64,000 nucleotides of DNA from an uncultured Gemmatimonadaceae bacterium (GTDB lineage Bacteria; Gemmatimonadota; Gemmatimonadetes; Gemmatimonadales; Gemmatimonadaceae), in contig CAWHHI010000020.1 of the NCBI GenBank assembly GCA_963829055.1, forward strand, positions 384,001 through 448,000, given 5' to 3'. Positions 1,629-64,000 of the stretch are shown piece by piece. The notes under the pieces are model-generated. The model had not been told where the DNA came from. It worked only from the letters and a program-made list of their open reading frames with translations, and did no database searches. Position numbers and translations under genes: made by a program. Each line of letters starts with the position of its first letter. Positions within the stretch are counted from its first letter, which is position 1.

Positions 1629-1678
1629 GGTGTGGTTGCGTTAGGTCACGGGCGAGGTGCAATCACCTCGGCCACCAG

Positions 1679-1723
1679 AGCTTAGACCCAGGCGAGGAGC
1701 ACGACAGTTGGACTTTGGTCCAA
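1679..1723 (-). promoter_or_regulatory. Activator box plus promoter for the L,D-transpeptidase
   Basis: Minus strand TTGGAC-CAAA-GTCCAA (perfect 6+6 palindrome, 1708-1723), then CTGTCG, 17 bp, TAAGCT. Confidence 0.75.
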
Positions 1724-1743
1724 ACGCCACCCGTTGAGGCCGT

Positions 1744-2157
1744 TCAGAGTGCCGTCTCGCGCGGAGTGGTCATCACTCGCTCGATGGCGGCGAGTAGCTG
1801 ATCAGCTCCGATGGGCTTCCGCAGATACTCGGTGACACCGGTGGCGACGTAGCGCGCCTGGGCTTCGGGCGCGTCATCGGCGGTGTACACGATGGTCGGA
1901 AGGTTCACACCACGGTGGGCGAGATGCTGGTGCAGCTCCAGCCCGGTCATCCGCGGCATGTGCGCGTCCAGCAGCAGGCAGTCGGGGCGCGTCGCGCCGG
2001 CCTCGAGCGAGTCGATGAGCTCGCGGCCGGAGGCATAGATGGCGGGGTTCAAGCCGAGTGCGCCGCAGAGTCGGCGGAGAGCGATACGAACCGACTCCTC
2101 GTCATCGACGATCGCGATCGAGATGCAGTTGGGCGGCGGCATATGATCAGAGGACAT
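1744..2157 (-). CDS. Single-domain response regulator (receiver only)
   Basis: IAIVDDEESVR, CLLLDAHMPRMTG, YLRKP; no output domain; overlaps the kinase stop. Confidence 0.9.
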   Translation of the reverse strand: MSSDHMPPPNCISIAIVDDEESVRIALRRLCGALGLNPAIYASGRELIDSLEAGATRPDCLLLDAHMPRMTGLELHQHLAHRGVNLPTIVYTADDAPEAQARYVATGVTEYLRKPIGADQLLAAIERVMTTPRETAL

Positions 2158-4258
2158 CGGTTGACACGCGTGAAAGGTTGGTCGGTCCGCCTAACGCCAC
2201 TGCCCGCGGGGGCGCGACCGGCGCGGAGCTGAGCAGGCAGTGGACGGTGGCGCCTCGATCGGCGTTGTTCTGGGCCCACATGCGGCCACCATGCGCTGCG
2301 ACGATGGTCCTCGAGATCGAGAGTCCGAGACCGAGCCCTTCGGGCTTCGTCGTCACGAACGGCTCGAACAGTCGATCGATCACGGCCGCGGGAATCCCCG
2401 TGCCGCAATCGTGCACGGACAGATGCACGTTGCCCCTCGCATCGGAGTTCACGATCACGGACAACCTCCGATCGACCGGCGGCGTGGAGCTCATCGCCTC
2501 GCATGCGTTGACGACCACATTCAGCAACACCTGCTGTAGCTGCACACGATCGCCGAACACCGGAGAAATGTCGGGGGCGAAGAGCGCAGTCGCGACGACA
2601 CGACGGGCAATCAGCTCGGCATGTGCCAGCTCGAGTACCTCGTTGACCAGCTCTACCGGAGCTAGCAGCTGGGAACATACCTCGTTGCGATCGAGCAGCG
2701 CCCGAAGGCGTTGAATGACGTCGGCGGCGCGCTGGTTGGACGTGATGATGTCCCGAACGATCGCATCGAGCTCCTCGAGATCTGGCTGGTCGCGCGTGAG
2801 CAGAATTCGCGCGGCGCCCGCGTTGCCGGCGATGGACGCCAGCGGCTGATTCAACTCGTGCGCGAGAGCGCCCGAGAGTTGGCCTAACAGGGTGACCCGC
2901 GCGAGGTGCGAAAGCGCGCGTCGCTGCTCCTCGATTTCCATCAGCGCGTGGCGGCGTTTGGTCTCGTCGGCTCGCGTCACGACGGCACCGCCATCAGGTC
3001 GCTCGAGCGTTTCGACGCTGAAGACGGACCACGTCCGTTGGCCGTTCCGTTCGTGATCGTACTCCATCTCGAAGCGGTGTTGGTCGCGATTGAGCACGCG
3101 CAGGACGCCGGTCAACGCTCGGGCCGCGATGGGATCCCCTGTCTCTGCACCCAGGCGACACGCGCCCGCGTAATCGTCTCCCACACCGGCGCGCTCGAAT
3201 CTCAACACGCCGGACGTCTCGGCGAACCGCCGCCACGCGTCGTTCACCTCGAGGATAGTGCCGCGCGCATCGATGATGGCGACGTGATCGGGGAGTGACG
3301 CCAGAAGCGCGCGATGGAGCTGTACTACGCCATGCCTCGCCGTACTGACCGCGGCAATGCAGAGCACCGGGAGCGCCGTCAGGAGCACGAAGCCCTGCAG
3401 CACGAGCACGTTCTGGGCAGGCGATGATTCGAGAAACGGTCCGAAGCCGCGGTCGGCGCCCAGCAATGAGATGAACGTGGCCGCCGTGAGCGTGAGGCTC
3501 GCGCCCGCGGATCCGAAGCGAAGCGCCGCCCAGATGAGGACTGGCAACGGCGCGTACAACCGCTGAAGTGCGAAGTGCCACGGGCCGCTCGGAGGGACGA
3601 GGAACGCGATCGCGGTTGTCGCGACCAGCGCCCCGGCGAGCGCCATCGCCTCGCCCACTCGCCGTTTGTCCGCCCGGTGCCAGGGCCGTCGCAGGCCGCT
3701 CGTGGCCAGGAGAACGAATGCCGGAAGCATCGTTAGGCCGGTGAGCGCGTTGGACAGGAACCAGGCGCTCCACAGCTGCCGGTACGTCCCCGATCCACCA
3801 TGCAGCACGGCGTTTGCGGCGCCTATCGTCGCCCCGACCGCCGGTGCGATCAGCGCTGCACAGGCAACGAACATCCCCAGACTTCTGACGCTATCGAGAC
3901 GCGGTGGTCCCTTGAACACACGACCCAACAGCACGGCGGCGGTCAACGCGCGCGCGATGTTGGCGACGTCGGAGAGCAGGACCCACGACACGCTCCACCG
4001 CGGCCAACTCGTCACGAAGTGCATGAGCATGGCCACCAGGATGTATGGCAGCCACTTGCGCCGTGGTGATACGAGGAGCGCCGCGGTGAGCACCGCGTAC
4101 GGCGGAAAAAGAACGGCGCTTCCGAGGTCGGGGTAGCGGAACAGCGATCCGACCAGATTGCCTAACAAGCAGGCCAGCGTGAACATCCAGAGCCCGGGCG
4201 CCAGGGATTGCGTCCGTGCGTCCGCTTCGGGATCCGTAGTCGCGCGGTCTTCGCTCAT
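2147..4258 (-). CDS. MASE1-PAS sensor histidine kinase
   Basis: Multiple TM helices with MASE1-like PVLIWAALRFG; PAS segment; H-box ALAHELNQPL; N-box QQVLLNVVVNACEAM; G-box GLGLGLSISRTI. Start placed at ATG 4258 rather than the ORF-track 4597. Confidence 0.9.
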   Translation of the reverse strand: MSEDRATTDPEADARTQSLAPGLWMFTLACLLGNLVGSLFRYPDLGSAVLFPPYAVLTAALLVSPRRKWLPYILVAMLMHFVTSWPRWSVSWVLLSDVANIARALTAAVLLGRVFKGPPRLDSVRSLGMFVACAALIAPAVGATIGAANAVLHGGSGTYRQLWSAWFLSNALTGLTMLPAFVLLATSGLRRPWHRADKRRVGEAMALAGALVATTAIAFLVPPSGPWHFALQRLYAPLPVLIWAALRFGSAGASLTLTAATFISLLGADRGFGPFLESSPAQNVLVLQGFVLLTALPVLCIAAVSTARHGVVQLHRALLASLPDHVAIIDARGTILEVNDAWRRFAETSGVLRFERAGVGDDYAGACRLGAETGDPIAARALTGVLRVLNRDQHRFEMEYDHERNGQRTWSVFSVETLERPDGGAVVTRADETKRRHALMEIEEQRRALSHLARVTLLGQLSGALAHELNQPLASIAGNAGAARILLTRDQPDLEELDAIVRDIITSNQRAADVIQRLRALLDRNEVCSQLLAPVELVNEVLELAHAELIARRVVATALFAPDISPVFGDRVQLQQVLLNVVVNACEAMSSTPPVDRRLSVIVNSDARGNVHLSVHDCGTGIPAAVIDRLFEPFVTTKPEGLGLGLSISRTIVAAHGGRMWAQNNADRGATVHCLLSSAPVAPPRAVALGGPTNLSRVSTDVL

Positions 4259-4616: not shown

Positions 4617-4693
4617 GCGTTGGTCCCTGGGTTCGCTGCGAAGTCGACGGAGGCAGCCTGATCGTTAGGCTCCGCCGACTGCCGTGTCCGGCA

Positions 4694-4750: not shown

Positions 4751-7700
4751 TCACAACAGCAATCGGGCAAACCGACCGAGCCGGCGCTGCCATTTGCTGT
4801 AGGGTGGTATCAACTTGTCGAGCTCGGCTTCCGTCTCGATCCAGGTACTTCGCGTCATGAGCGAGAAAAGATCGAAGAGTCCCACAGCGCCGCTCATGCC
4901 CGACAGAACGAACAACGCTTCGCCATCGAGGAGCATACCGCGAGGGTCCTGATTCATCGTGCCGACGGTGAAGTAGAATGACATACGCGCACTGTCGGCT
5001 GGCGGACGGTTCGCGAGATACGCTTTGAGCAGGGTCTGGATCGCGGCTGCCCCTGCTGTCGTAACGCTGTCGTCGTACAGGCCGGTCTTGGTGCCGCGCT
5101 GGGCTTGCAGGGCGCGGGCGATGATCGTCTGGATCACGACCTCGCGCCACTCCGGCCGCGAGGCGAGCCGGGCGAGCGCAGCGGAATCGGCGAAGAATTG
5201 CGTCTTCCGATGCAACTGTGGCAACCGTGGTACTTCGTCGCGGCCGAGCTCGAACGGACGGTATCCCTTGCGTTCGAGTACGGCCGGCGCACTGTCGAGG
5301 ACCGCGAGGACACCTGGCGCGAGCGGGACCAGGTCGTGAAGCCACGGGTACCGATCCATTCCCGCGCGCACCGCACGTGACTGCTGGACAATGTCGTTCA
5401 CGTCTTCCTTGGCCGTATAGAGCCCGACTCGCAGCTCGCCGCCGGCTTTTTTGATCTCGTTTGTGAATTCATGGCGCACCTCCAGGAGCCGCAGCATCAC
5501 CTCCTGGATGCGTGACATTCTGCGGAAAGCCCGCGCTCGGTGCATTGGCGAGTGCCGGCGCGACGATGAACACGCGGCAGCCGCGGAGGGCTGCACCCGC
5601 GAGCATCCCCGCCCACCCGCTCGCGAGCCAGAGTCCGTCGGGGACGATGATGACGTTGCCGGGAGGCGACAGCGTGTAGAGCATTGCGCGCGCAATCGAT
5701 GCCTGCTTGGCTCCGAAGCCGGGCTCGTTATTCACCAGGAGCGCCCGACCCAGCTCGCTCGCCGCGACCGCGTCGCCATCATCGAGCGAGGCGTTCGTCG
5801 CCCGGCACGTATCGCAGCGAGGTGTTTCACGGAGCACCGGCGGAATCTCGGACGTCCTTGAAGCTGTTCAGTTTGAGCAATCGTCTCGCGGCGGCCCGCA
5901 CCTCCAATATGGCAGGCCCGCGAACGAGCATGCCGCGATCCTCCCAGGTCGGGGTCGCGTAATGCTCTCCGATACCCACCCCGGACAGCAGCATCCCACC
6001 CCGCTGCGGCGCCGATTCGGTGACGTCGTAGAACGCGATCTTCCGGTGGTCGCGCATGAGGTTATCCGGAAGCAGCGGCAGATTCGAAACGAGATGGTGG
6101 CTGCGGAACGTGAAGTCGCTCGGTTGCGTGATGCTCACGTGCACCTTGACGGTCCGTCGCAGCCAGTCTTCGCCACCGTGGCGGGCCGCGAGAGCCTGGA
6201 GCCCGTGCGACTGCAGGACCGCCTCACGCAGCGTTCGCTGCCGGTCGCGGAGGATCGTCTCCAGCGAGTCGTTTCCGCGCGGTAATTTGATCGTCGCGCC
6301 TAACGGGTCTTCCAGAATCGACATCCAGAGACGCCCGTTGTCAGGCTCGTAGAAGTTCTGGTCGAGAAAGAAGTAGTACGTCGTCAGGCTCCCTGTGCTG
6401 TCGAATCGCGCGACGGCCTGTGTGAGCGCCGGGAAGTACACGTTGGCCGTCTGCGCGAAGCCGACGCGGTCGACGTTTCCGGACGATCGCTGTCCGGCAT
6501 AGTCGTGAAGCCAGAGGACATGGTAGTCACGCGCCGCCAGGATCGTCCGGGCGAGCTCGATCTGCAGACGGTCCTCGCGCAGGTACGTGATCTCGTTCCC
6601 TCGCGTGAACGGTCGCCCGACGACCCGCGCGATGAGGGCGTCGACCTCTGCCTGATCGTCGTGCTGGTCCGGCGTGAGAGCGAACTGCAGCGGAAGCCAG
6701 ACGCGGCGCGAGTCGGACCACTGATTGGCGAGATGGTCATGGACGGCGACCACGGACGCGAGCCATTCCTCGTGCACGCGGACGACCGCGAGCCGCGATT
6801 CGTTCGTTAGGCCTGACGAGTCGGCCATCCACGCCTGCAAGTCGGCCCGCGTGGCATTGAGCAGCGGTGAGAGGAGGCTACCGCGCTCGCGTTCCTTGAC
6901 CTGGCCGAACAGTGCGTCGTACGGGATCAGGAACTGGGCGAGCAGTCCCGCGCGCGCGCGCCGAGCGACGATGCTGCCCAGCGCCGTGTCGCCGACGGCG
7001 ATGGCGAACGCCCGCTGGAGCGACGCTGCGTACACGCGCTCGGCCTCCTTGAACGTGTGCCCTTGAGGGTAGTCGGCCGAGACACGCAGCATGGTCTCGC
7101 GCGCGACTCGGGACATTTCGCGCATCTTCTCCGCGTCCTTCGCGCGATCGGTCTCGTGACGTTCGCTGAAAAAGTTGCTGGAGGCGGCGATCAGGAATGC
7201 GGCCTCTCGGACGAGACCGAGCGCGGTGTCGGCACTCGCCGGCAACGGTCGTGCCGGCCGCGCGCGTGACTGTTTCGCGCGGGTTGGTGATCGAGCGCGT
7301 GCGGTCCGTCGCACTACGGCGAGCAGCCTCGCGCAACAGATGCCCCGGTATTCTGCGGACGCGTTCTCCCAGCGTATCGCTGCCAGAGCGGGAGCGTGAT
7401 GCCGACATTGAATCCGCTGCTCCGCGACGGAATCCAATCGACGCGAAGTGTCGACCCGTTACCGAAGAGGCCACCGCGTCGAATCGCCGTGTTCAATGAC
7501 AGCATGAACGCGAAGTTGTTTTCCCGCGCGTCCCAGTCGACGCCGTAGCCGAGGTTCGCGGCGCGCGTCACGCCGAGGAGACGGAGGCCTCCCGTCGCAC
7601 CCCCGTCGGCCGCCAACACATACGCTTCGGACGAGAGTCCGAACATCCCGTTGACCGGGCTGCCTCTGGGGTGGAACAGACCGATCACCAGCCCGCCCAC

Positions 7701-7934
7701 CGCGTCGTTGTTGCGTCCGAAGGTGGCAACGGCCGACGTGTAGGCTTGCCAGAGCGGTGGTTGGCCCATTGACGTGATGGACGGAATCGCCGGCGGGCCG
7801 ACGGGAGACTGCGCGTCGGCTGGCGCGGACGCGGCAGTCGCGGCAAGCGCCACCCACCCGGAGATTGCCACCCGCGCCAGCGCGCGCGACGCGCGACACG
7901 CGACGGATGCGTCGCCTAGCAAGTCGTTAGGCAT
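4751..7934 (-). CDS. Large exported phospholipase D-superfamily protein, split by about 3 frameshifts
   Basis: Joins ORFs 7314-8069, 5827-7437, 5469-5837 and 4751-5695; signal peptide ending ASAPADAQ; HKD motif DHRKIAFYD; second LHRKTQFFAD followed later by VGTMNQDPRG. Confidence 0.7.
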
Positions 7935-8079: not shown

Positions 8080-8387
8080 TGGACCAGCGCAGCGTCGATC
8101 CGAGATTTCGCGAGAACAGCGCGTCGACTCGACCGACTCATCCGTGGTCATGCCTGCCCTCTGACTGCGACGCGCCGCCGCGTTCGCGCGTCCACGGCGA
8201 GGCGCACCGGCGGAGAACACATGCGAAGCGCGCTGCCGGTTTGGCGGGTGGGGGCGGCCTTAGCCTGGGCGCACAACGCTCAGGGCGTCGCGGACGTTAG
8301 GGAGGTATGAAGGTGTACAGCCGTGTGATCGCGTCGCCGCCCCAGTCGGGACGGCCGCGCCCAGGCTAGCGTGAGTCCGCGATGCTA

Positions 8388-9346: not shown

Positions 9347-12300
9347 ATGCCCCCTCCCTCGACCATCGACGCACGCCAGGTTGAATCCGGCTGGCGACGC
9401 GCGCACGCCCCGGGTACGCCTGGCGCTGGCATGCGTGGCGGTGGCCGTGGCGTATTACGCCGGTGCGAAGGCCGGGTTCGTACTCACGCCGAAGACGCAG
9501 CCCGTCTCGACGCTCTGGCCACCTAACGCGATTCTGATGGGCGCGCTGCTGCTCGCGCCAGCCCGGGCGTGGTGGCCGTCCTCCTGCTCGCGGCTCTCCC
9601 CGCGCACCTCGCCGTGGAGTTAGGCAGCGGAGTGCCGTTCGGGATGGTGCTGTCGTGGTTCGTCAGCAATTCGGCCGAAGCGCTGATCGGTGCGGCCATC
9701 GTCCGCCGCTTCATCAAGCCTCCGCTGCAGTTCGACACCTTTCGCAGCGTCGGGATTTTCGTGGTGGGCGCGGCGCTCGTCGCGCCGTTCGCTCTCCTCG
9801 TTCCTGGATGCCGCGTTCGTGCAGTGGAACGCGTGGGGAACCGCCGGCTACTGGGAAGTATGGCACGTCCGATTCTTCTCGAACGTCCTCACGATCCTGA
9901 TCATCGTGCCGGTGATCGTTTCGTGGGACCAGTCGGAACGCTGCAGTCGCTTCGCGCGATCACGGCTCGTCGGGCGCTCGAAGCGGGCCTGCTCGTCTCC
10001 ACGCTCCTCGTCGTGTCCACCATCGTGTTCGTGCGGCCGGCGTTAGGCGGCCCACGTGACGCGTGGCGCTGCTGGCCGCCCCGTTGCCATTTCTGCTGTG
10101 GGCCGCCCTCCGATTCGGACCGGCGGGCGCGAGCGGATGCCTGCTGGTAGTCGCCGTGCTCTCGGTGTGGGGTGCGATCCATGGGCAGGGTCCGTTCGTC
10201 GGCCTATCCGATCGCTGACTACGTCCTCTCGCTCCAGCTGTTCCTGATCGTCACGTATATCCCGATCTTCGCGCTCACGGCCGCCATTCGCGAATGCGTC
10301 AGAGCGGAGGAAGCCGCTCGGCGCAGCGAGGAGCGGCTCACGCTGTCGTTGAGCGCTGCACAGGTTGGCGCGTGGGACTGGAACATTCCGGCGGCCATCC
10401 GACAGGCGCCCGAGAGCACGAACGGACTGTTCGGCCAGCCCGCGACGGGCAACGGGGCGACCAACGGGAAGATCGATCACCCGGCGTTTCTCGACACGGT
10501 GAACGCCGACGACCGGCTGATCGTTCGTCGACGGCATCAGCGACGCCATCGAATACGCGAAGCCCTACGAGGTCGAGTTCCGCACCGCCGGCTCGAACGG
10601 AGCGATGCGGTGGATGTTGAGCAAGGGGACGGTCGTTCGCGACGGGACAGGTCGTCCGATCCGCATGGTCGGCGTCAATGCCGACATCACGGACGCGGAA
10701 GCGGGCCGAAGACGTCCTGCGGCAGCGAAGCCATGCGCGAGGAGAGTGACGCGCGGCTCCGGGCACTCGCGGACGCGATGCCGCAGATCGCGTTCACGGC
10801 GCGTCCCGATGGCGTGATCGACTACTTCAACGGAAAGTGGTACGAGTTCACCGGGCATGCCGAGGGATCAGGTCATCGACGAGACGCTGGGTCAACGTCA
10901 TCCACCCGAGTGGATCGGAATGGATGCGTGGAATCCTGGCACCAGGACGTCTCCAGGGGACGGCCGCACGAGCACGAGGGTCGCTTCTGGAACGCGCGGA
11001 CGGGTCGCTACCGATGGTTCCTCGCGCGCGCGCTTCCCGTGCGTGACGAGTCAGGCGCCATCATCCGCTGGTACGGCACGGCGACCGACATCGAGGATCA
11101 AAAACGCACGGAACACGCGCTGCGCGAGAGCGAAGGCAGCCTGCGCACCTTGCGATCGGAGCTCGAGTACCGCGTGTCGGAAGCGGACGCTGGCGCTCAG
11201 GCGATCGAACGTGACGCTGCACGAGGAGATCGACACTGCGCGTGCGAATCGAGCAGGCGCTTCGCGCGTCGGAGGAACGATTCGCCAAGGCGTTTCGCGC
11301 GAGCCTCGACGCCATCTCCATCTCGCAGCCATCCGGACGCGCGCATCCTCGAGATCAACGAGCGGCGCGAAGCGATGTTCGGGTATCGCGCGCGACGAGG
11401 TGATCGGGCGGACGATCGACGAGCTCGCAGATCTTCGCGCACCAGAAGAGACCGAAAGCGATTTCTCCGAGCTCATGCGAAGTCGCACGGGAATGTGCAC
11501 GAGCTCGAGCTCGACATGAGACACAAGAACGGCACGCTGCTGCGAGCCGTGCTGTCGGCGGAGACGGTCGAGGTTGGAGGCGATCCGTGCCTCATCATGA
11601 TGGTTCGCGACATCACGGAGCGTCAGCGCGCGGAGCGGAAGATCGCCGAGCAGCAGCGCGAGCTCGCGCACCTCGGCCGCGTCGCGATGCTCGGCGAATT
11701 GTCTGGGGCGCTGGCGCACGAGCTCAATCAGCCGCTCGCCGCCATTCTGGCGAATGCGCCGTGCGGCGCAGCGCCTGCTGACGCGCGGTGACGTCGATCA
11801 GACCGAGTTGCGCGCGATTCTCGATGACATCGTGTCTGACGATCGGCGGGCGGGAGAGGTGATCCGCCGCGTCCGGGCCATGCTTCGGAAGGACGAGACC
11901 GAGCTGCAACCGATCGCGCCGAACGATATCGTGACCGATGTGCTCGAGCTGGCGCACAGTGATCTGATTCAGCGCGGCGTGATCGTTTCGACGGACCTCG
12001 CGCCGTCGTTGCCGTATGTGCTGGCCGACGGTGTGCAGCTGCAGCAGGTGATGTTGAATCTGATCGTCAACGCGTGCGACGCGATGACGGAGTACCCGCC
12101 CGACGAGCGGATTCTGACCATATCGACGGGGCACGATCGGCACCACCGTCCGCGTGTCCGTCACCGACAACGGGACCGGTCTCACCAGTGAGCGGCTCGA
12201 GACCGTGTTTCAGCCCTTCGTGACGTCGAAGCGTCACGGGCTCGGCCTCGGCCTCACGATCTGTCGATCGATCGTCGAGGCGCACGGTGGGCGCATGTAG

Positions 12301-14592: not shown

Positions 14593-14596
14593 CTCG

Positions 14597-15805: not shown

Positions 15806-15819
15806 CACATGGCCGGTGC

Positions 15820-48706: not shown

Positions 48707-48746
48707 CGATACCGAAGTCTCCACCACAGCCACCGGAGCGTGCGTC

Positions 48747-51506: not shown

Positions 51507-51760
51507 CACCGGGATCGGCATCGCGTTAGGGCCAGCCTTAACAGACAGCGGGACGCAGAATGACGCAGACCGCCCGCTGGCGCGGACGGACGCGGATTGA
51601 CGCGACGGCTCCGCGTCAGGACCGCTGCGCAACGACGCCTGATTTGACGCGAGCTGTCCTCGCGGACTGGCTCTGAATGAACGTCTGAGCAGCCTTGCGC
51701 CTGCCGCGTCCATCGGCCAGCGATCGGAATGTGATCGACCGCCGTCGGCGACGGAATCGG

Positions 51761-54971: not shown

Positions 54972-55084
54972 GGCGGTGACCATACCGCCTGCACTCACCC
55001 GCTCTCGACATCTCCACGCGCGCTGTCTCGCAGCCGAGCCAGGCGGTCGGTCGCGGCACCACCTCGCCGTTAGGCGCCTCCGTC

Positions 55085-57115
<2,031 letters not shown>

Positions 57116-57148: not shown

Positions 57149-59690
57149 ATGAAGGCCGCCGGAGAAGGGGCTCCCAAGCTGAAGACGAAACGAAGCGTGC
57201 CAAAGGCTGCTCGGACGACAGACTCGGACGCCCTGTCGAAGGTGATCGCCAGGTATGGCGGCGGCCCGGCCCAGCTCACCGGGAGTGAGAGTGCGCTCTA
57301 CGAACGTCATCTCACGTTCGACAACGTGCTGGCCGCGGAGCATACCGGTGCACGGGAGCAATACGAGGCATTCGCGCGATCCGTCCGCGACGTACTCTCC
57401 CAGCGCTGGATACAGACCGGGCAGACCTACGAGCGAGAAAATCCCAAGCGGGTCTACTACCTGTCGATGGAGTTCCTGATCGGCCGCTCGCTCGCGAACA
57501 ACGTCATCAACATGGTGCTCGACCCGTACGTGCCTCGCATCGCTGCGGAGAAGGGGCTCGATTGGGTAAGCGTCCTGGAACAGGAACCGGACGCGGGGCT
57601 CGGCAACGGAGGTCTGGGGCGCCTCGCGGCGTGTTTCCTGGACTCGATGGCGACCCTGCAGCTTCCGGCCATGGGCTACGGGCTGCGATACGAGTACGGG
57701 ATCTTCCGCCAGTCCGTTCAGAATGGATGGCAGGAGGAACGGCCTGACAACTGGCTCCGGCGCGAGGACCCGTGGGAGGTCGCTCGGCCTAACGAGAAGG
57801 TGGAGATCAAGCTCGGCTGCTCGTTCGAGCTGCGAGGCGGCCGCCTGCGGCTCGTCCAGGGCTCGCCCTCCACGCTGTTAGGCATTCCATTCGACCGGCC
57901 CGTGGTCGGCTACGGAGGGGGAAACATCAACACCCTCCGACTCTGGGCGGCGGCCGCGCCGGACTACTTCGACTTCCAGCGCTTCAGCCGCGGTGAGTTC
58001 GTCGAAGCACTGGAGGAAAAGCTCGCGGCAGAATCTCTCACCCGGGTGCTGTACCCCGACGATTCCACGGTGAGCGGCCAGGCGCTGCGCTTACTCCAGG
58101 AGTATTTCCTCGTCGCCTGCTCGCTGGCCGATCTCGTGCGGCGTTTCCGCAGCGCCAACGACGACTGGAGTGCACTGCCTGACAAGGTGGCGATTCAGCT
58201 CAACGACACCCACCCGGCGCTCGCTGTTCCGGAGCTGATGCGCATCCTGCTCGACGAGGCGCATCTCGGATGGGATGACGCCTGGGAGCTGACGCGGCAG
58301 ACGCTCGCCTATACCAACCACACGCTCCTGCCGGAGGCGCTCGAGAAGTGGCCGCTCAAGTGGTTCGAGCAGCTCTTACCGCGGCATCTCGAGATCGTGT
58401 TCGAGATCAATCGCCGACTACTCGACACGGTTCGCTCCCGCTTTCCGGGAGATGAAGGACGTGTCGAGCGAGTGAGCCTGGTCGAAGAGGGCCGAGCCAA
58501 GCAGATCCGCATGGCCAACCTCGCGATCGTCGGTTCCCACAGCACCAACGGCGTTGCCGCGATCCACTCGGGACTGTTGCGCACGACCACGGTCAAGGAT
58601 CTCGCGGAGACCTTCCCGGAGCGCTTCAACAACAAGACCAACGGAGTCACGCCACGTCGCTGGTTGCTGCTGGCCAATCCCCCGCTGGCCCGCGCGGTGA
58701 CTGACGCAATCGGGAAGTCCTGGATCACCGATCTGAGCCAGCTGAGAAAGCTCGCGCCATTCGCCGCCGACTCGGGATTCCGTGACGCGTTCCGAAGCGC
58801 CAAGCGTCAGGCGAAGGCCAGGTTCGCGGAATGGGTCGAGGCGACATCAGGTCACGTGCTCGACCCGAACACGATCATCGATTCGCCACGTCAAGCGCAT
58901 TCACGAATACAAGCGGCAGTTGTTGAACGCGCTGCGCGTCGTGGTGCTCTACAACCGGCTACGCGAGAACGCGCAGCTCGACATCGCACCGCGCACGTTC
59001 ATCTTCGCGGGGAAGGCTGCACCGGCGTATCAGCTGGCCAAGCTGGTCATCAAGCTCGTGAACAACGTAGCGGCCACCATCGACGGCGACCCCTCGGTAC
59101 GCGGGCGCCTCAAGGTGCTGTTCCTGCCCGAGTACTGCGTGTCCATGGCGGAACGACTCATCCCGGCGACCGACGTCTCCAACCAGATCTCCACCGCCGG
59201 CTACGAGGCGAGCGGCACCAGCAACATGAAGTTCATGATGAATGGGGCGCTCACGATCGGAACGCGCGACGGGGCCACGATCGAGATGGCCGAGGAGGCG
59301 GGCGAGGACAACTTTTTCCTGTTCGGCCTGACCGCTGGCCAGGTGACGGAGAGCCGCGGCCGGTATACGCCGCAGTCACATTACGACACCGAACCGGAGA
59401 CTCGAGCGGCACTCGATCTGATTTTCGATGATCACTTCAGCCGCGACGAGCCAGGCGTGTTCGCCCCACTGCGTGACACGCTGCTCGTCAGCGACCACTA
59501 CCTGCACCTCGCCGACCTGCGATCGTATCTCGAGGCTGACGGGCGGTTGCTGGGATTGTATGCCGATCAGGACGCGTGGGCGGAGAAGGCGATTCTCAAC
59601 GTGGCCGCTTCGGGAAAGTTCTCGAGTGACCGCACGATCGCCGAGTACGCGCGGGAGATCTGGAACGCGAAACCGTGCGCGGTGCCCTGA
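57149..59690 (+). CDS. glgP: Glycogen/maltodextrin phosphorylase; frameshift near 58885
   Basis: YYLSMEFLIGR, GNGGLGRLAACF, QLNDTHP, TNGVTPRRW, KRIHEYKRQ, EASGTSNMKF. Confidence 0.95.
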
Positions 59691-59750
59691 CCGGCATCGA
59701 TTCGATGGAGGCCGCCGCCGCGGCGCCGACGTTAGGCAGGCAGCGCGGCC

Positions 59751-61992
59751 TCAGAGCTGTCTCGAGAACCCGTAGACGAATCGGAGGCCTCTCCGCATGT
59801 CGTGCGTCGCATCGATCGGCAGGGCGACGCCGAGGTAGACGGTACTGCCGAAGAGCCGGACCCCGAAGCTCGCCGTGGCACGGAGCGCCTCGGTGGGCAC
59901 CGACGCCGGCACCGGTTGCCCGGTCTCCGGATCGATTTCCACCTGGCCCGTACTCGTATCCACCTTGTCGCCCAGCCGCCTAACGGCCGCGCGCGCCTGG
60001 TCGTTGCTCGCCCACGCCATCCCCGTCTGGACGCCCATCACCAGATCCGGCGCGACCGGCGGGAACACGAACCCGGTGAAGATCGGGACCGGTGCGCGGA
60101 GGGTCGGAATCGCGTACTGGACCGTCCCGCGCGCGATCCACGCGCGGTCGCCGGCGAACGCCTTGTAGTCGTAGCCCGGAAGGTTCTGCGTCGACCCGAT
60201 CTCGAACAGCTGCTGCGTGGGGACGGTACCGCCGATCAACCCGCCGTACAGCCGTTCGATGAACAGCAGCGACCTGACAGTCTGGCGCGCGATGAACACC
60301 CCTTCCACCCGCTGGTAGTCGAGGTCGCCGTCGCCGCGCTCGTAGCGGACGCCGCCGCCGAAGCGCTCGCGCGTGAGGTCGGCGTGGATGTCGGGGTTCC
60401 ACTCCACGATCGCGATCGACCGCACGTACTGGCCGGGATCGACGATACGGTTCGGACGGAACGGGCTGAAGAAGATGCCTTCCTTCCGGTGTTGCGCCGC
60501 GCCGGTGTCGCGAACAACGCCCAGCTCCAGACGGACGTGCATCCCGGTCGGCGTGAGCACGTTCTCCGCCGTTAGGCGGGCAACACGTCGGTCGACGTAA
60601 TCGTTGTCGTCGGCGGACCAGAAGATGGCCGACCACACGCTGCCGGAGTCGAGTGGCGAGCGGAAGTCGTTCGTCAGATCGAGCAGCCGAGCGACGGCCC
60701 CGGTCGTGATCCACCCATGACGCCGAAAGCCCGGCGCCGACGTAGCCGCGCCACGTCTCCTCGGACCACGCGTAGCCCGCCGTTCCGACCACCGACAAGC
60801 CGGGCACGCGATCGCGCGCGAGCCAGGAGGCGGACAGGCCGGTGTACACCCCCTCCACCTTGTTGAACCGGAACACCTCGTAGTCATTGCGCGCGCGAAA
60901 CGACCAGCGAGGCGGCCCGGTGGGTTTCACGCGATCGGGGTAGAGGTCGTCGAGTGCCTCGTTCTGCGCGATCTCGGTCGCACGCCCTATGGGGAGCAGC
61001 CATGCGCCGTACGCGTCCTGCGAATCGCGGGGCGCATACGTGATGCGATACTGCGGCGATCGCCGCTGAGCGCTGTCGGGCGGTGGGGGCGGGTCACGGG
61101 CAATGATGTCATGGTGTCTGAAGCGCGTCACGAAACGGAGCAGCGTTGCCGATTGTCCCACCACGCCACCGCGCACGATGTCGAGGCGCTCGATGTCGGG
61201 GAGGCGCAGGCCATCCCGCTCGGGGCCGTTCCACATGTCCACGAACCCGACCACTCGCTCGCTCCCGGTGATGTCGTCGAGCGCCTGTATCGCCACGTGG
61301 TGGATGATGTACACCCGGCCGCGCAGGTGGACGACGAGCAGCGTCCGCGCATCGATGTCCACGTCGCCGGCGAACACGCCCGTTCCGGAGGAGACATCCT
61401 CGCGCGGCTGAACCGTGATTCGCATCACGTCGACCGAATCGCCGTTAGGCATGGGCTCGCGAAGCGAGTCGACACGGGGGTACTCATAGTAGTCGGGCCC
61501 GTCCCGAGCGAGCGGATGGACGGTCGCGACGGTCTCCGGCTCGAAGAGGAACCGTCGTATCTGCCGCACGACGGGGTCGAGCGCTTTCTCGACCTTCGAA
61601 ACGCTGGCGGGATTCGGGAACCGCAGGCGGAAGCGATCGCCCTGCAGCACCGGGACGACCCACCCGGCGCGATAGACGCGGGTCATCGCGAGCTCCATCC
61701 CCACCTGCTCGGCGCGATAGCCTGTGACGCGCTGCTCGATGACGCTGTCGCGCGTCCACTCGATCGTCGACGCCTGCTGCTGCATGGAGACGACCTCGCG
61801 CCGTCCCGACGCGCGGCGCGCGACGACGGCGATCTCGGTCTCGAATTCCATCCGTGCTCGATACGGCCGCGCCTCGTAGTTACGAGCCGCGGCTCTCGAG
61901 ACGAGCACGCGGACGTCTGGAGGCGTGAGGACCGAGGAATCCTGCGTCACCACCTGCGGCGCGAGGAGGAGCGTGATGAACGTGGCGAGCAC
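59751..61992 (-). CDS. Exported protein with C-terminal outer-membrane beta-barrel; frameshift near 60720
   Basis: Short signal peptide; FRFNKVEGVYTG; LPGYDYKAFAGD; terminal RFVYGFSRQL. Confidence 0.7.
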
Positions 61993-62012
61993 GAGGACTG
62001 GTTAGGCGCGGG

Positions 62013-62058: not shown

Positions 62059-62137
62059 TACCGGCGGGCCAGGTCAGCGGACGACAGGTCGAAGGCCGCT
62101 CGTGGCACCTCGACCGAATCCGACAACGTCTGACCGC

Positions 62138-63458
62138 CTAGAGCCAACCGCCACGAAATCCCGCGCGTGTGAGCCCGGTGACGATCGCCGGACTGCGGCG
62201 CATGATGTCCCAGAGGAGACCGGTCCTGTAGTTCTCGATCATCAGCACGACCGGCCCCTGATCGATGCCGAAGTGGTACGGCGTCACCCACCACCCTGTC
62301 GGGCTGTCCGGCATCTCGAACGACTGATTGAACGACGGGCTGAACCCGTATTTCGCCGTCATGCCAAGGTCCATTCGCGCGAACCGCTGCATGGTGGGGA
62401 TGACTATTTCGGGGGCGAACGGCAGTGACGCGACGACGACCCATGGCGCGACGGTGCCGTCGTCGGGACCGAAGGGCGCGCCCCGGGCGATGTAGTCGAA
62501 GAACTCCCGCTCGACACCGTTCACCGTCCGCCTAACGTTCCCCGGGCCGTCGCAGGCCGTGAATCCCCAGCAGTGCTCCCCGTAGCCGACGTAGCCCAGG
62601 GGATTCCGGATCGCGTATTCCTGCTGGACGAGCGTCGCCTGCCGGCGTGTTCTCGAAGTAGTCGCTGTCGTGCGCCCGCATGAACTCGTCCCGCAGGCCG
62701 CGAAAGTCGATCCACAGGTGCGAGAGTTGATGCGTGAAGAGCGGCCCCGAGTACAGCAGCTCGCGATCGTAGATCTGCTTCCACTGGTACGTCGCGCAGT
62801 AGGCGGGATAGCTCTCGAGCGGCAGCGGGTGCGTCGGCGAACCGAGCCCGAGGATGTACAACAGCAACCCTTCGTCGTACCCCTGGTAGCGATGGGGGAT
62901 GAAGCCGCTCTCCGGCCGCCAGCCGTGGGTCAGCGTCGGCCCGCCGTTCCGTGCCCAGTTCCAGTCGGCGCGATGGTACAGCGCGTCGGCCAACTGCCTG
63001 ATCTCGATCTCGTTAGGCACGTCGCGGTCGAAATACGCCCCGGCGGTCAGCGCGCCCGCAAAGAGAAACGCCGAGTCGATGGTCGACAGCTCGCACTGCC
63101 AGACGCGGCGACCCGTCTCGATGTCCAGGAAGTGATAGAAGAACCCCTTGTAGCCGGAGGCGTCCGGCTCCGGGCCCTGCGGGCATTGGAGCAGGTAGCG
63201 CAGTCGCTTCAGGGTGATCTTCGCGGCGAAATCCCGGGCGATGACGCCGCGCTCGACGACGACGGGAATCGTCGCCAGTGCCATGCCCACGGCGGCAATG
63301 CTGACCGGCGCATGCGGGTCGGTCTTGTCACGCACCAGGCCGTTGTCCGGATTGGTCTCGTGCAGATAGTACAGGACCGTGGAGAGCTGCAGCAGCCCCA
63401 AATCCCTGTCGGTCAGCGGTCGATCGAGACCGTCGTCGACATCGAGCCCGGACCGCAT
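62138..63458 (-). CDS. GH144-like (glucoamylase-family) beta-1,2-glucanase, frameshifted
   Basis: NGLVRDK, SIAAVG, GFFYHFLD, ELSTIDSA, HGWRPESGF, PLFTHQLSH, GIDQGP. Confidence 0.82.
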
Positions 63459-63474
63459 TGGCCGTCGTCGTCCG

Positions 63475-64000
63475 TCAGCCCAACTGCACGACGACGTCAT
63501 GGTGCTTCGCGTCGTCGCGCAGCGGCAATGAATCGTTAGGCATCCGCTGGCCGTCCAGCTCGACCGATCGGACGCCGCGACCCGTTCCGGCCGAGTTGTC
63601 CACCAGGATGCGATACGTCGAAGACCCGTGGCGGTAGCGCAGCTCGAATTTCGGCCACGCCCGCGGGATGCACGGCGCGAAACGCAGGGTATCGCCTCGC
63701 AGCTGAAAACCCAGGAGCGTCTCGATGGCCACGCGGTACAGCCAACCCGCCGAGCCGGTGTACCACGTCCAGCCACCACGTCCCGTGTGCGGCGCGGCGC
63801 CATAGATGTCCGCACACGCCACGTACGGCTCGACCTTGTAACGCTGCACCGCCCTGGCCGTCATGGCGTGGTAGATCGGATTGATGAGGTTCCACAGCTC
63901 CATGGCGCGGTCGCCGTGTCCCTGCAGCGCGGTCGCCAGGACGACCCACGTGGCGGCGTGGGTGTATTGCCCGCCGTTCTCCCGGATGCCCGGCACGTAC
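63475..64000 (-). CDS. C-terminus of a GH94 glycoside phosphorylase (cyclic beta-1,2-glucan synthase/NdvB-like), truncated by the window edge
   Basis: PGIRENGGQYTHAATW, YKVEPYV, GRGGWTWYTGSAGW. Confidence 0.88.
   Translation of the reverse strand, partial: YVPGIRENGGQYTHAATWVVLATALQGHGDRAMELWNLINPIYHAMTARAVQRYKVEPYVACADIYGAAPHTGRGGWTWYTGSAGWLYRVAIETLLGFQLRGDTLRFAPCIPRAWPKFELRYRHGSSTYRILVDNSAGTGRGVRSVELDGQRMPNDSLPLRDDAKHHDVVVQLG

What the first reader, a model, noticed from the sequence alone, without database searches (positions are those of the whole stretch)
1639..63541. Dense, strand-unbiased octamer GCCTAACG written into genes with rare codons
Seen: 73 sites by hand count, starting at 1639, 2189, 2882, 3731, 4160, 4663, 6298, 6805, 7925, 8295, 9521, 10041, 12451, 12856, 13455, 14595, 15052, 15818, 16133, 17195, 18172, 19733, 19773, 21640, 22805, 23174, 23993, 25189, 26428, 28001, 29173, 29452, 31230, 32214, 33878, 34717, 35014, 35953, 36240, 37981, 38854, 39433, 40268, 40872, 41722, 43132, 43460, 44395, 45056, 45621, 47235, 47448, 48262, 48701, 49534, 51199, 51524, 53278, 53370, 54651, 55068, 56281, 56862, 57787, 57876, 59730, 59978, 60570, 61443, 62000, 62530, 63011, 63534. 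Of these 58 are perfect; a rough base-composition estimate gives only 2-3. Every CCTAAC core I found has at least one of the two consensus flanks. The motif occurs in several reading frames: GCG-TTA-GGC (ALG; 29452, 35953, 40268, 43132), CGC-CTA-ACG (RLT; 18172, 39433, 54651), CCT-AAC (PN; 28001, 40872, 56281), GTT-AGG (VR; 17195, 45621). It therefore uses TTA, CTA and AGG codons that high-GC genomes avoid, so the constraint looks DNA-level. The largest gap is about 2.4 kb, which looks more even than random. Established: comparable elements are Neisseria/Pasteurellaceae uptake sequences, cyanobacterial HIP1, Chi and KOPS; Chi and KOPS are strand-polarised and HIP1 is palindromic, unlike this one. 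Inference: a lineage-specific chromosome signal such as an uptake sequence, nucleoid-protein site or modification-linked mark. I do not recognise it as a described element.
Basis: partly seen in the sequence, partly recalled or inferred. Interest (0 to 1): 0.92.

Follow-up and report, generated by a model that had tools for sequence, protein, structure and literature searches.

The report
Hyper-abundant GCCTAACG self word
This uncultured soil bacterium has written one eight-letter DNA word about every 1,500 bases through its genes, against its own codon habits and at regulated spacing, much as a few bacteria tag their own DNA for uptake; what reads the word is still unknown.

Summary
The window has 58 perfect GCCTAACG (31+/27-) against 1.2 in shuffles. 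The genome, a Gemmatimonadaceae MAG, has 5,004. Synonymous-codon shuffling leaves 137 of 2,996 in-gene copies.

New here:
- 12-58% of all peptide contexts that can host the word carry it.
- An eligible context within 100 bp of another word is written 3.9% of the time, against 32% at 600-1600 bp. The pressure therefore acts on DNA segments, not single sites.
- There is no replichore polarity and no excess of inverted pairs.
- The word is rich in only 12 of 301 genomes of the phylum, all in one order and interleaved with poor relatives.
- It equals the commonest R box of the local integron attC sites plus G. Integron integrase occurs in rich and poor genomes alike.
- RecC, AddB, Vsr, MutH, C5 methylase, VirB4 and HK97 capsid do not track it. 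ComEC and DprA are in every genome searched.

Best reading, at moderate confidence: an uptake-sequence-like self tag spread by biased DNA exchange. This scan found the same word before on other Gemmatimonadota DNA.

The parts
2189..2196 (+). perfect word
3731..3738 (-). perfect word
4663..4670 (-). perfect word
6298..6305 (+). perfect word
6805..6812 (-). perfect word
7925..7932 (-). perfect word
10041..10048 (-). perfect word
12451..12458 (+). perfect word
12856..12863 (+). perfect word
13455..13462 (+). perfect word
14595..14602 (-). perfect word
15052..15059 (-). perfect word; its TAA is the stop codon of the predicted gene 15054-15734 (-)
16133..16140 (+). perfect word
18172..18179 (+). 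perfect word, CGC-CTA-ACG in gene 16755-18275
19733..19740 (+). perfect word, intergenic; left member of a close inverted pair
19773..19780 (-). perfect word, intergenic; right member of the pair (40 bp apart, the smallest gap in the window)
21640..21647 (-). perfect word in TamB-like gene 20780-25315
22805..22812 (+). perfect word in TamB-like gene
23174..23181 (+). perfect word in TamB-like gene
23993..24000 (+). perfect word in TamB-like gene
25189..25196 (+). perfect word in TamB-like gene
26428..26435 (+). perfect word in Omp85 gene 25315-27600
28001..28008 (+). perfect word, CCT-AAC frame
29173..29180 (+). perfect word
29452..29459 (-). perfect word, GCG-TTA-GGC frame
31230..31237 (-). 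perfect word
32214..32221 (-). perfect word, just downstream of gene 31199-32203
33878..33885 (+). perfect word
35014..35021 (-). perfect word
35953..35960 (-). perfect word
36240..36247 (+). perfect word in decarboxylase gene 36088-37641
37981..37988 (-). perfect word in decarboxylase gene 37866-40088; covered by public contigs
38854..38861 (+). perfect word in decarboxylase gene
39433..39440 (+). perfect word in decarboxylase gene
40268..40275 (-). perfect word in permease gene 40027-41469
40872..40879 (+). perfect word in permease gene
43132..43139 (-). perfect word in decarboxylase gene 42423-44828; covered by a public contig
43460..43467 (+). perfect word in decarboxylase gene
45056..45063 (-). 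perfect word next to the heptamer-repeat element
45621..45628 (-). perfect word
47235..47242 (+). perfect word
47448..47455 (-). perfect word
48262..48269 (+). perfect word
48701..48708 (+). perfect word
51199..51206 (+). perfect word
53278..53285 (+). perfect word
53370..53377 (-). perfect word
54651..54658 (+). perfect word in phosphoketolase gene
55068..55075 (-). perfect word
56281..56288 (+). perfect word in isoamylase-like gene
57787..57794 (+). perfect word in glycogen phosphorylase gene
59730..59737 (-). perfect word, between convergent genes
59978..59985 (+). perfect word
60570..60577 (-). perfect word
61443..61450 (-). perfect word
62530..62537 (+). perfect word; its complement TAG is the stop codon of the predicted gene 62532-63458 (-)
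63011..63018 (-). perfect word
63534..63541 (-). perfect word
1639..1646 (-). tolerated variant ACCTAACG
2882..2889 (+). tolerated variant GCCTAACA
4160..4167 (+). tolerated variant GCCTAACA
8295..8302 (-). tolerated variant CCCTAACG
9521..9528 (+). tolerated variant ACCTAACG
15818..15825 (+). variant GCCTAACC
17195..17202 (-). variant GCCTAACT
34717..34724 (-). tolerated variant ACCTAACG
41722..41729 (+). tolerated variant GCCTAACA
44395..44402 (+). tolerated variant ACCTAACG
49534..49541 (+). variant GCCTAACC
51524..51531 (-). tolerated variant CCCTAACG
56862..56869 (+). tolerated variant ACCTAACG
57876..57883 (-). tolerated variant GCCTAACA
62000..62007 (-). variant GCCTAACC

Best explanation
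GCCTAACG is a real duplex-DNA signal of this Gemmatimonadaceae lineage, read in either orientation with the specificity [G>A>C]-C-[C>A]-T-A-A-C-[G>A]. Shown: copies are made by point substitutions, mostly synonymous and some amino-acid changing, wherever a protein or spacer tolerates them. They are kept at about one per 1.5 kb, and a second copy within about 300 bp of an existing one is disfavoured. Inferred: the most likely cause is an uptake-sequence-type molecular drive. A surface or periplasmic DNA receptor of the transformation machinery would prefer fragments that carry the word. The type IV pilus with its minor pilins at G000:C12 about 399.3-401.8 kb, ComEC and DprA are all encoded. Alleles carrying the word would then be imported and recombined more often than alleles lacking it. 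One word per short fragment would suffice, which would explain the interference distance and the even spacing. The reader protein is not identified, and biased uptake is not shown.
For: The word is real and over-represented:
- 58 in the window against 1.23 in shuffles.
- 5,004 in 7.78 Mb, 2,457+/2,547-, observed/expected 38, 49 and 19 under Markov orders 1, 2 and 3. It is the top octamer by observed/expected.

The pressure is at DNA level:
- 2,996 in-gene copies against 137 +/- 12 after synonymous shuffling.
- In rpoC, sites are CTC->TTA or CTC->CTA at conserved P-L-G, A-L-G and S-L-T.
- 47% of all TTA codons in confident genes lie inside the word.
- Occupancy of eligible peptide contexts is 23% ([SPTA]LG), 21% ([SRGC]LT), 58% (xPNx) and 12% (xVRx), which is 17-88 times codon-usage expectation.

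The pressure acts on segments:
- Occupancy is 47/1217 (3.9%) within 100 bp of another word, 12% at 100-200 bp, 20% at 200-300 bp and 1287/4017 (32%) at 600-1600 bp. This holds in all four frames.
- Gaps of 100 bp or less make up 1.4% against 6.3% expected.
- Window gap CV is 0.59.

Other properties:
- Strand-symmetric with no replichore polarity: 840/899 and 1332/1332.
- Equal density in genic (0.62/kb) and non-genic (0.73/kb) DNA.
- Compact, with no conserved flanks.
- The proteome is bent. Amino-acid identity to poor orthologues is 0.557 at word codons against 0.651 overall. The PN dipeptide is enriched in 5 of 5 comparisons with poor genomes.
- Machinery is present: ComEC in 43/43 genomes, DprA in 8/8, and a PilMNOPQ locus with pilins and three minor-pilin-like ORFs.
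- Word-free stretches look like foreign DNA.
- Density runs as a continuum of 0.1-1.25 per kb across genera, as expected of a drive of varying strength.
Against: - No reader was found.
- The competence genes are equally present in word-poor relatives, so they do not explain who is rich.
- ComP_DUS (PF16732) reaches no cut-off in 5 genomes and gives nothing in G000. Its weak hits are ordinary PilA-like pilins.
- ComEA-type matches are all below cut-off, with none in G000.
- No other word ('dialect') appears in 100-120 kb samples of four poor relatives. This differs from the Neisseriaceae pattern.
- Close inverted pairs, typical of DUS terminators, are not enriched.
- The exact identity with the integron attC R box is not predicted by a plain uptake model.
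- Biased uptake, transformation and recombination were not and cannot be observed with these tools.
- I made no literature search on competence in Gemmatimonadota.
Confidence: 0.4

Rival explanations
1. The word is the binding site of an abundant chromosomal protein, for nucleoid organisation, condensin or repair-factor loading, or replication-linked scanning. Selection for a regular array of sites along the chromosome would keep its density.
For: Even spacing with few short gaps. Strand symmetry. Equal density in coding and non-coding DNA. A compact 8-bp specificity typical of one DNA-binding domain. Higher occupancy in the most codon-biased genes, 0.19 rising to 0.30.
Against: Interference reaches about 300 bp, far beyond a protein footprint. 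The distribution is patchy, with close relatives that manage without the word: 12 of 301 genomes are rich, interleaved with poor ones on the RpoC tree. No candidate protein was found. Known nucleoid sites (parS, matS, SlmA and Noc sites; recalled) are longer, palindromic and few.
Confidence: 0.2
2. The word is read by the integron integrase or a relative. The genome-wide copies would be duplex R boxes acting as attI/attG-like landing or docking sites, or as decoys, for the cassette recombination system.
For: In 59 attC sites from 9 cassette arrays of word-poor relatives, R'' is GCCTAAC+[A 26/G 20] and R' (read on the other strand) is GCCTAAC+[G 30/A 20]. These are the same 7-mer and the same two preferred eighth letters as genome-wide (G 5004, A 435). 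IntI scored over the family cut-off in G000, G001, G003, G005, G236, G293, G300 and G207. Integrases can insert cassettes at genomic attG sites (Loot 2024, as cited in passages of PMC12901181).
Against: IntI is just as common in poor genomes: over cut-off in 18 of 31 relatives of both kinds. Rich-genome IntIs are not one clade: 5 changes, and 59 of 500 shuffles are as low. In G014 the matches are three below-cut-off pieces on one contig, and G002 and G004 have only weak ones. Variant spectra differ: attC tolerates GTCTAAC (19 of 118 boxes), which genome-wide has observed/expected 0.42, while the genome tolerates ACCTAACG, CCCTAACG and GCATAACG. My attC search required RYYYAAC, so it could not see the last two forms. 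There is no excess of R''...R' type inverted pairs. No attC array lies beside the G000 intI. Insertion into genes would be harmful.
Confidence: 0.1
3. The word is a Chi-like self tag that tells a helicase-nuclease to stop degrading DNA and start recombination.
For: An octamer, over-represented, present on both strands so that both ends of a two-ended break would be protected (inference). G000 encodes an AddAB-like pair.
Against: No orientation bias with GC skew. RecC was found in only 3 of 43 genomes: one moderately rich, two poor. No PDDEXK_1 AddB-type nuclease was found in the very rich G236 and G293, which are 96-97% complete. The word is built from rare codons, whereas known Chi sites use common ones (recalled).
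Confidence: 0.06
4. The word is the by-product of a sequence-specific repair or modification bias (Vsr-type very-short-patch repair, or a MutH-type nicking signal with a methylase). Alternatively, biased packaging or conjugation, rather than uptake, drives it.
For: Single-mismatch neighbours at the six inner positions stand at 0.2-0.8 of a Markov expectation. This may partly be an artefact of the word inflating that expectation. A D12-class adenine methylase gene is present in 7 of 7 genomes of the genus.
Against: Vsr 0 of 5 genomes. MutH 0 of 5. C5 methylase only in the poor G289. The D12 methylase was found in 14 of 22 rich and 9 of 21 poor genomes (one a weak match) and in neither G014 nor G300. 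Sites arise by several different substitution types, including double changes, which one mismatch specificity cannot give. HK97 capsid 0 of 5. VirB4 0 of 22 rich genomes.
Confidence: 0.06
5. The word is an assembly or sequencing artefact of this long-read-like assembly.
For: The assembly does contain single-base indel errors.
Against: Contigs from 4 public runs of 4 studies carry the same stretch. Six other genomes of the genus and several other genera carry thousands of copies. Sites sit at homologous codons in different genomes.
Confidence: 0.01

Closest known systems
DNA uptake sequences: USS of Pasteurellaceae and DUS of Neisseriaceae
   Same: Thousands of copies at about one per 1-1.5 kb (their densities recalled). 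Both orientations equal, mostly inside genes in a few preferred frames, and evenly spaced. Lacking from foreign DNA. Bends protein sequence (PMC2817400, abstract start in the listing). Shared by related genera.
   Different: Only 8 bp with no flanking preference. No inverted-pair terminators. No dialects in the poor relatives sampled. Receptor unknown: ComP_DUS not met. Uptake bias untested. New phylum. The word coincides with the integron attC R box.
HIP1 (GCGATCGC) of cyanobacteria
   Same: A hyper-abundant octamer with quasi-periodic spacing, conserved by selection. A 2026 paper proposes it as an uptake recognition sequence (PMC13756078, abstract read; PMC5861425, listing only).
   Different: HIP1 is a palindrome and is a substrate of two known methylases. 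This word is not palindromic, and no methylase tracks it.
Integron attC R''/R' boxes (RYYYAAC / GTTRRRY; consensus recalled) and genomic attG sites
   Same: Letter-for-letter identity of GCCTAAC with the R box. The same preferred neighbouring base in the local arrays (GCCTAAC as the R'' of attC-aadB in PMC12901181).
   Different: Genome-wide copies are single duplex words without the L boxes or hairpin partner. Their abundance is independent of IntI presence or clade.
Chi, KOPS and other architecture-imparting octamers
   Same: Over-represented octamers read by DNA-translocating machines.
   Different: Those are polarised along the replichores. This one is not. RecC and AddB do not track it.

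Membership tests
DNA uptake sequence (USS/DUS type) | Short word far above chance, genome-wide, not explained by codon usage | tested here: met
   5,004 copies, observed/expected 19-49; 2,996 against 137 after synonymous shuffling
DNA uptake sequence (USS/DUS type) | Both orientations equally frequent, no replichore polarity | tested here: met
   2,457/2,547; 840/899 and 1332/1332 by sign of GC skew
DNA uptake sequence (USS/DUS type) | Spacing more even than random | tested here: met
   Occupancy 3.9% within 100 bp against 32% at 600-1600 bp; window gap CV 0.59
DNA uptake sequence (USS/DUS type) | Transformation machinery encoded | tested here: met
   ComEC 43/43, DprA 8/8, type IV pilus locus. 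These do not discriminate, since poor relatives have them too. ComEA-type matches are only below cut-off, with none in G000
DNA uptake sequence (USS/DUS type) | A cognate sequence-specific receptor (ComP-type minor pilin) | tested here: inconclusive
   PF16732 reaches no cut-off in 5 genomes. Three minor-pilin-like ORFs of unknown specificity lie in the pilus locus
DNA uptake sequence (USS/DUS type) | Preferential uptake or transformation by DNA carrying the word | not testable with these tools
   Needs a bench assay
Chi site | Orientation bias along the replichores | tested here: not met
Chi site | Cognate RecBCD or AddAB present wherever the word is rich | tested here: not met
   RecC in 3 of 43 genomes; no PDDEXK_1 nuclease in G236 or G293
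HIP1-type iterated palindrome | Palindromic word that is the target of cognate methylases | tested here: not met
   The word is not a palindrome. No methylase family tracks it
Integron attC site | R'' and R' boxes as an imperfect inverted repeat with L boxes, folding as a hairpin of about 60-140 nt | tested here: not met
   No flank conservation. Convergent pairs are not enriched. True attC sites of relatives have this form
Integron attC site | R-box sequence RYYYAAC/GTTRRRY | tested here: met
   GCCTAAC is the commonest R box in 59 local attC sites
REP / MITE type dispersed repeat | A longer conserved unit, usually intergenic and hairpin-forming | tested here: not met
   Information is confined to 8 bp. 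About three quarters of copies lie in predicted genes

The most novel reading that the evidence does not exclude
The match to the integron R box is not chance. In these lineages the DNA receptor of transformation, or a recruited integrase-like DNA-binding module, would read the attC R box itself. Cells would then preferentially import kin DNA and integron cassette arrays, and the chromosome has been rewritten with the cassette recombination core as its self tag. This would couple natural transformation mechanistically to integron cassette recruitment. It would also supply thousands of potential R boxes from which new attC sites could arise.
Probability: 0.12. Interest if true: 0.9.

Novelty: new member of a known kind. 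Interest (0 to 1): 0.72.

Why it matters
Specific self-DNA tags are established in only two bacterial families, with HIP1 as a debated third case. A fourth, in widespread uncultured soil and rhizosphere bacteria of another phylum, would show that such tags are a general outcome of DNA exchange and not a curiosity of host-associated pathogens.

The system is well suited to study:
- The interference distance gives a quantitative handle on the size of the DNA unit on which the process acts.
- The identity with the integron recombination core links it to a recent finding that natural transformation feeds integrons (PMC12614218, abstract).

On the practical side, word density is a sharp marker for binning and for spotting chimeric contigs in these metagenome-assembled genomes.

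Tried and rejected
Candidate readers by presence or absence.
- ComEC is universal.
- RecC is rare.
- AddB-type nuclease was not found in two very rich genomes.
- Vsr: none.
- C5 methylase: only in a poor genome.
- HK97 capsid: none.
- ComP_DUS: sub-threshold only. The hits proved to be ordinary PilA-like pilins with homologues in G000.
- VirB4: none in rich genomes.
- MutH: none.
- D12 methylase: in both classes.
- DprA is universal.
- ComEA-type matches are below cut-off.

An apparent lack of methylases in rich genomes did not hold up. PF01555 gave 0 strong hits in the 11 richest genomes, against 12 of 21 poor ones. But G014 has four PF02384 genes, and G001 and G300 have one each. It remains a weak, phylogenetically confounded trend.

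A special 'rich-type' integrase is not supported by the tree.

Dialects: none were seen in samples of G008, G017, G018 and G020. G029 showed other repeat words that I did not follow.

Word-free islands as mobile elements: rejected. They hold housekeeping genes and sit mostly at contig ends.

Depletion in insertion sequences: not testable, because the genome has almost no repeats. Only 68.7 kb lies in repeats, at 0.48 words/kb against 0.64 elsewhere.

DNA-level synteny with congeners found only a small repeat, so I used protein-guided codon alignments instead.

Positional sharing of sites as proof of common descent is mostly explained by high occupancy of few eligible contexts. Only G236 against G300 exceeds independence: 7 shared against 2.7 expected of 23 contexts, hypergeometric p about 1.5e-4 by my own arithmetic from the counts.

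The 'same genus' contrast of G289 (66 words) with G236 and G293 (about 4,000) is weaker than it looks. G289 carries two rpoC contigs, and in the rpoBC region it is no closer to G236 than G000 or G300 are. The RpoC tree does place it as sister to G236/G293 (a quick tree, because the careful search did not finish).

Literature:
- 'GCCTAACG' anywhere in text: 280 papers. The 20 listed are primer or oligonucleotide contexts.
- Gemmatimonadetes + integron + attC: 2 irrelevant papers.
- Uptake sequence / overrepresented / Gemmatimon*: nothing on this word.
- Uptake sequence / over-represented / octamer / genomes: nothing on this word.

The claims of earlier scan notes that another phylum, plasmids and viruses share the word were not tested. 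Among the 75 rpoC loci from many phyla, only two, both Gemmatimonadales, were rich.

Rfam found nothing in the window.

Full report
**1. Observation**

The window holds 58 perfect GCCTAACG, 31 on the plus and 27 on the minus strand. One hundred dinucleotide-preserving shuffles gave a mean of 1.23 and at most 6. The window has 74 CCTAAC cores, and none lacks both flanking consensus letters. The largest gap between perfect sites is 2,498 bp. Uniform placement gives a mean largest gap of 4,973 bp, and 0 of 5,000 simulations were as small. The coefficient of variation of the gaps is 0.587 against 0.97.

**2. The genome**

The window is G000:C20:384001-448000 of a 7.78-Mb, 20-contig, 66% G+C assembly. 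Its RpoC is 82-87% identical to MAGs titled Gemmatimonadaceae.

- Genome-wide there are 5,004 copies (2,457/2,547). This is the 14th commonest octamer and the only one of the top 30 that is not pure G+C-rich sequence.
- Observed over expected is 38, 49 and 19 under Markov orders 1, 2 and 3. The word and its overlapping words head the list of all octamers.
- Information is confined to the eight letters. Flanks show only codon periodicity and a weak preference for C at -1 and +8.
- Tolerated variants are ACCTAACG (827), CCCTAACG (428), GCATAACG (583) and GCCTAACA (435). Other single mismatches stand at 0.2-0.8 of a Markov expectation, apart from milder excesses of about 2-3 fold for TCCTAACG, GCCTAACC, GCCTAACT and the common-codon word GCCTGACG. 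The word may itself inflate that expectation.

**3. The sites are not an artefact**

- Contigs from four public runs of four different studies (rhizosphere, soil, freshwater sediment) cover all 30 bins of window 30000-49999. None of the 40 listed differences lies in a word. A further 880 differences were not displayed, so this is not a complete test.
- Six of six other genomes of the genus carry 2,501-5,112 copies.
- The assembly does contain single-base indels relative to those contigs, for example at 47714. These explain several split genes and the low coding fraction of my own gene caller: 7,252 genes, 78% coding.

**4. The pressure is on DNA, not on protein or translation**

- In 5,515 predicted genes the word occurs 2,996 times, against 137 +/- 12 in 20 within-gene synonymous shuffles.
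- All four stop-free frames are used: nCG-TTA-GGC 1328, nnG-CCT-AAC-G 945, nGC-CTA-ACG 617 and nnC-GTT-AGG-C 477. A further 1,236 copies lie outside predicted genes and 401 at gene edges.
- The two remaining frames carry TAA and TAG. Accordingly 236 of 891 TAA stops and 189 of 1,864 TAG stops of predicted genes are supplied by the word. Examples are 15052 and 62530 in the window.
- Density is about the same in genic (0.62/kb) and non-genic DNA (0.73/kb).
- In rpoC the sites are CTC->TTA or CTC->CTA at conserved P-L-G, A-L-G and S-L-T. Poor relatives keep the common codon.
- In 4,263 confident genes, 47% of all TTA codons lie inside the word.

**5. How far the writing has gone**

Counting every peptide context that could host the word without changing the protein gives the following.

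| Context | Eligible | Written | Occupancy |
|---|---|---|---|
| [SPTA]-L-G | 4,906 | 1,147 | 23% |
| [SRGC]-L-T | 2,512 | 516 | 21% |
| x-P-N-x | 1,320 | 771 | 58% |
| x-V-R-x | 3,304 | 388 | 12% |

These occupancies are 17 to 88 times what codon usage predicts.

- Occupancy is not lower in strongly codon-biased genes. It rises from 0.19 to about 0.30 across deciles of codon bias and is roughly flat along genes.
- The proteome is affected. Against orthologues from five word-poor relatives, amino-acid identity is 0.557 (161/289) at word-covered codons, 0.615 in six-codon flanks and 0.651 overall.
- The Pro-Asn dipeptide is more enriched in G000 than in the partner in 5 of 5 poor comparisons.

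**6. Spacing is regulated**

This is the main new result.

- Genome-wide, gaps of 100 bp or less are 1.4% against 6.3% expected. Gaps of 400 bp or less are 14.5% against 23.0%. The variance-to-mean ratio in 5-kb bins is 0.84.
- A stricter test controls for where the word could be written at all. I asked how often an eligible peptide context is written, as a function of distance to the nearest other word.

| Distance to nearest other word | Occupancy |
|---|---|
| within 100 bp | 3.9% (47/1,217) |
| 100-200 bp | 12% |
| 200-300 bp | 20% |
| 300-400 bp | 25% |
| 600-1,600 bp | 32% (1,287/4,017) |
| beyond 4 kb | 6% |

- The pattern holds in each of the four frames.
- Regional heterogeneity would produce the opposite trend at short range.
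- So the pressure saturates once a stretch of a few hundred base pairs has one word. This points to a process that acts on DNA segments.

**7. What it is not**

- It shows no orientation bias with GC skew (840/899 where skew is positive, 1,332/1,332 where negative). Neighbouring sites have near-random relative orientation (2,589 of 4,984 the same), and convergent close pairs are not in excess. It is therefore unlike Chi or KOPS and unlike DUS terminator pairs.
- The large word-free stretches lie mostly at contig ends: C6:5440-55037, C6:591808-623330, C11:1-46789 and C19:1-11556. They have deviant G+C (0.70, 0.73, 0.565) and encode housekeeping genes: aromatic amino-acid synthesis, FtsK, GreA, glutamine synthetase, SerS, PurA and LpxB.
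- I read these as chimeric joins or contamination, not as mobile islands. They do show that the word marks this lineage's own DNA.

**8. Distribution**

- In 301 genomes sampled from the phylum, 12 carry the word at more than twice its reversed control. All 12 are in one order: 10 of 70 in family f1 including G000, 2 of 125 in f2, and 0 of 103 outside the order.
- The nearer sample adds G001-G006, G014 (6,360 copies in 5.1 Mb, the densest) and weaker cases G010 and G030.
- These counts include the unpublished genomes G013, G079, G118 and G199, all word-poor.
- In poor genomes the word is 5-10 times rarer than its control.
- On an RpoC tree (quick search; the careful one did not finish) the rich genomes fall in both subclades of the family, interleaved with poor ones, and need at least 2-3 changes.
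- Poor relatives show no alternative hyper-abundant word in 100-120 kb samples.
- Sites are often at the same codon in different rich genera, for example 7 of 25 G000 sites in G014, where four-fold site identity is 0.43. Because occupancy is so high, most of this sharing is expected without common descent. Only G236 against G300 (7 shared, 2.7 expected, 23 contexts) clearly exceeds independence (p about 1.5e-4 by my own hypergeometric arithmetic).

**9. The integron coincidence**

- In word-poor relatives the few copies come in same-strand runs spaced 500-700 bp. These are classic integron cassette arrays.
- In 59 attC sites from nine such loci, R'' is GCCTAAC followed by A (26) or G (20). R', read on the other strand, is GCCTAAC followed by G (30) or A (20). 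GTCTAAC makes up most of the rest. Median attC length is 93 nt.
- The word is thus the commonest local R box plus its commonest neighbour. GCCTAAC as an attC R'' box is confirmed in print (PMC12901181, passages). The general RYYYAAC/GTTRRRY consensus is recalled.
- The integrase, however, does not explain who is rich. It is over the family cut-off in 18 of 31 relatives of both kinds. It is present in rich G236, G293, G300 and G207 and in poor G289.
- Integrases of rich genomes are not one clade: 5 changes, and 59 of 500 shuffles are as low.
- The G000 integrase (C20:208041-208958, 265.7 bits against a cut-off of 265) has no attC array next to it.
- Variant spectra differ. attC tolerates T at the second letter and the genome does not. 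The genome tolerates A or C at the first letter and A at the third. My attC search could not have seen the last two forms.

**10.

On 22 rich and 21 poor genomes:

| Family | Result |
|---|---|
| ComEC | 43/43 |
| RecC | 3/43 |
| VirB4 | 0/22 rich |
| D12 methylase | 14/22 rich, 9/21 poor (one a weak match) |
| N6_N4 methylase | no strong hit in the 11 richest, against 12 of 21 poor |
| N6_Mtase | present in rich G014 (4 genes), G001 and G300 |

On five genomes each:

| Family | Result |
|---|---|
| AddB-type nuclease | in G000, G289 and G008; not in G236 or G293 |
| Vsr | none |
| C5 methylase | only in G289 |
| HK97 capsid | none |
| ComP_DUS | below cut-off only |
| MutH | none |

On eight genomes, DprA gave 8/8 and ComEA-type matches were all below cut-off.

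G000 has a type IV pilus locus on C12: PilS/R, two pilins, three minor-pilin-like ORFs of 119, 306 and 388 residues, and PilM/N/O/Q. Nothing tested tracks word density.

**11. Interpretation**

What is shown:
- a compact duplex word;
- written at DNA level, at a cost to codons and proteins;
- strand-symmetric;
- at regulated spacing with an interference length of about 300 bp;
- confined to some lineages of one order.

What is inferred:
- The best-fitting mechanism is a molecular drive through sequence-biased DNA exchange, of which uptake sequences are the known example. One word per imported fragment would be enough, and soil DNA fragments are short.
- I put this at 0.4.
- A chromosomal binding-site array (0.2), an integrase-linked role (0.1), a Chi-like tag (0.06) and repair, modification, packaging or conjugation biases (0.06) remain.
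- An artefact is excluded.

Context from papers:
- HIP1 is now proposed as an uptake recognition sequence (PMC13756078, abstract).
- Natural transformation has been shown to feed chromosomal integrons (PMC12614218, abstract).
- Together these make a link between an uptake tag and the attC core worth testing.

**12. Novelty**

I found no paper describing this word as a genomic signal in four searches. Earlier notes of this scan reported the same word on other Gemmatimonadota DNA, with the same closest analogue and the same attC match. Their claim of a second phylum, plasmids and viruses was not tested here.

Noticed in passing
window 44838-44865 and 45026-45052: An intergenic element bounded by inverted runs of a tandem heptamer: (GGGGACT)n on the left and (AGTCCCC)n on the right, about 160 bp apart. 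Pieces of it occur in many copies in congeners G001, G002 and G005. The bin 44674-45340 has 146-375x contig depth against about 5-45x elsewhere. It looks like a small dispersed repeat or MITE of this genus.
   Followed up: partly
window 48676-49342: A second bin of very high summed contig depth (92-993x) in all four public runs. This implies a repeated or very widely conserved segment. I did not examine it.
   Followed up: no
window 33666, 33738, 35111, 36182, 37847, 47714, 48783, 49935; also 47102-48863 and 51893-54979: Single-base indels relative to public contigs, and genes split across frames: an amino-acid permease and a phosphoketolase. The assembly carries frameshift errors, so apparent pseudogenes here should not be trusted.
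   Followed up: partly
window 36088-44828: A cluster of three paralogous Orn/Lys/Arg decarboxylases with an amino-acid permease and a solute-binding protein. It resembles an amino-acid-dependent acid-resistance or polyamine module. Same-genus genomes showed no DNA-level match to it.
   Followed up: no
G000:C6:5440-55037, C6:591808-623330, C11:1-46789, C19:1-11556: Word-free stretches at contig ends, with deviant G+C and housekeeping genes. They are probably chimeric joins with another organism. Word density could serve as a contamination check for these MAGs.
   Followed up: partly
G289 (C27 and C34): This genome, labelled the same genus as the very rich G236 and G293 but word-poor, carries two rpoC-bearing contigs. 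It may therefore be a mixed bin.
   Followed up: partly
genus g1 (G000-G006): Few DNA methyltransferases for 6-8 Mb genomes. PF01555 was found in 0 of 7, PF02384 only in G001, and PF00145 not in G000. Only a D12-class gene is conserved. The trend is weak and not general among rich genera.
   Followed up: partly
G021:C95:1-24000, G019:C3, G021:C43 and C80, G090:C12: Large integron cassette arrays in word-poor Gemmatimonadales. There are 22 attC sites in 26 kb of G021:C95, with highly uniform attC sites of about 93 nt. Integron integrases are over cut-off in 18 of 31 relatives.
   Followed up: partly
G029:C1:200001-300000: This poor relative has its own over-represented words (CCTCTTACC and AGCGGGGCA families) in a 100-kb sample. 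These probably belong to a dispersed repeat. I did not examine them.
   Followed up: no
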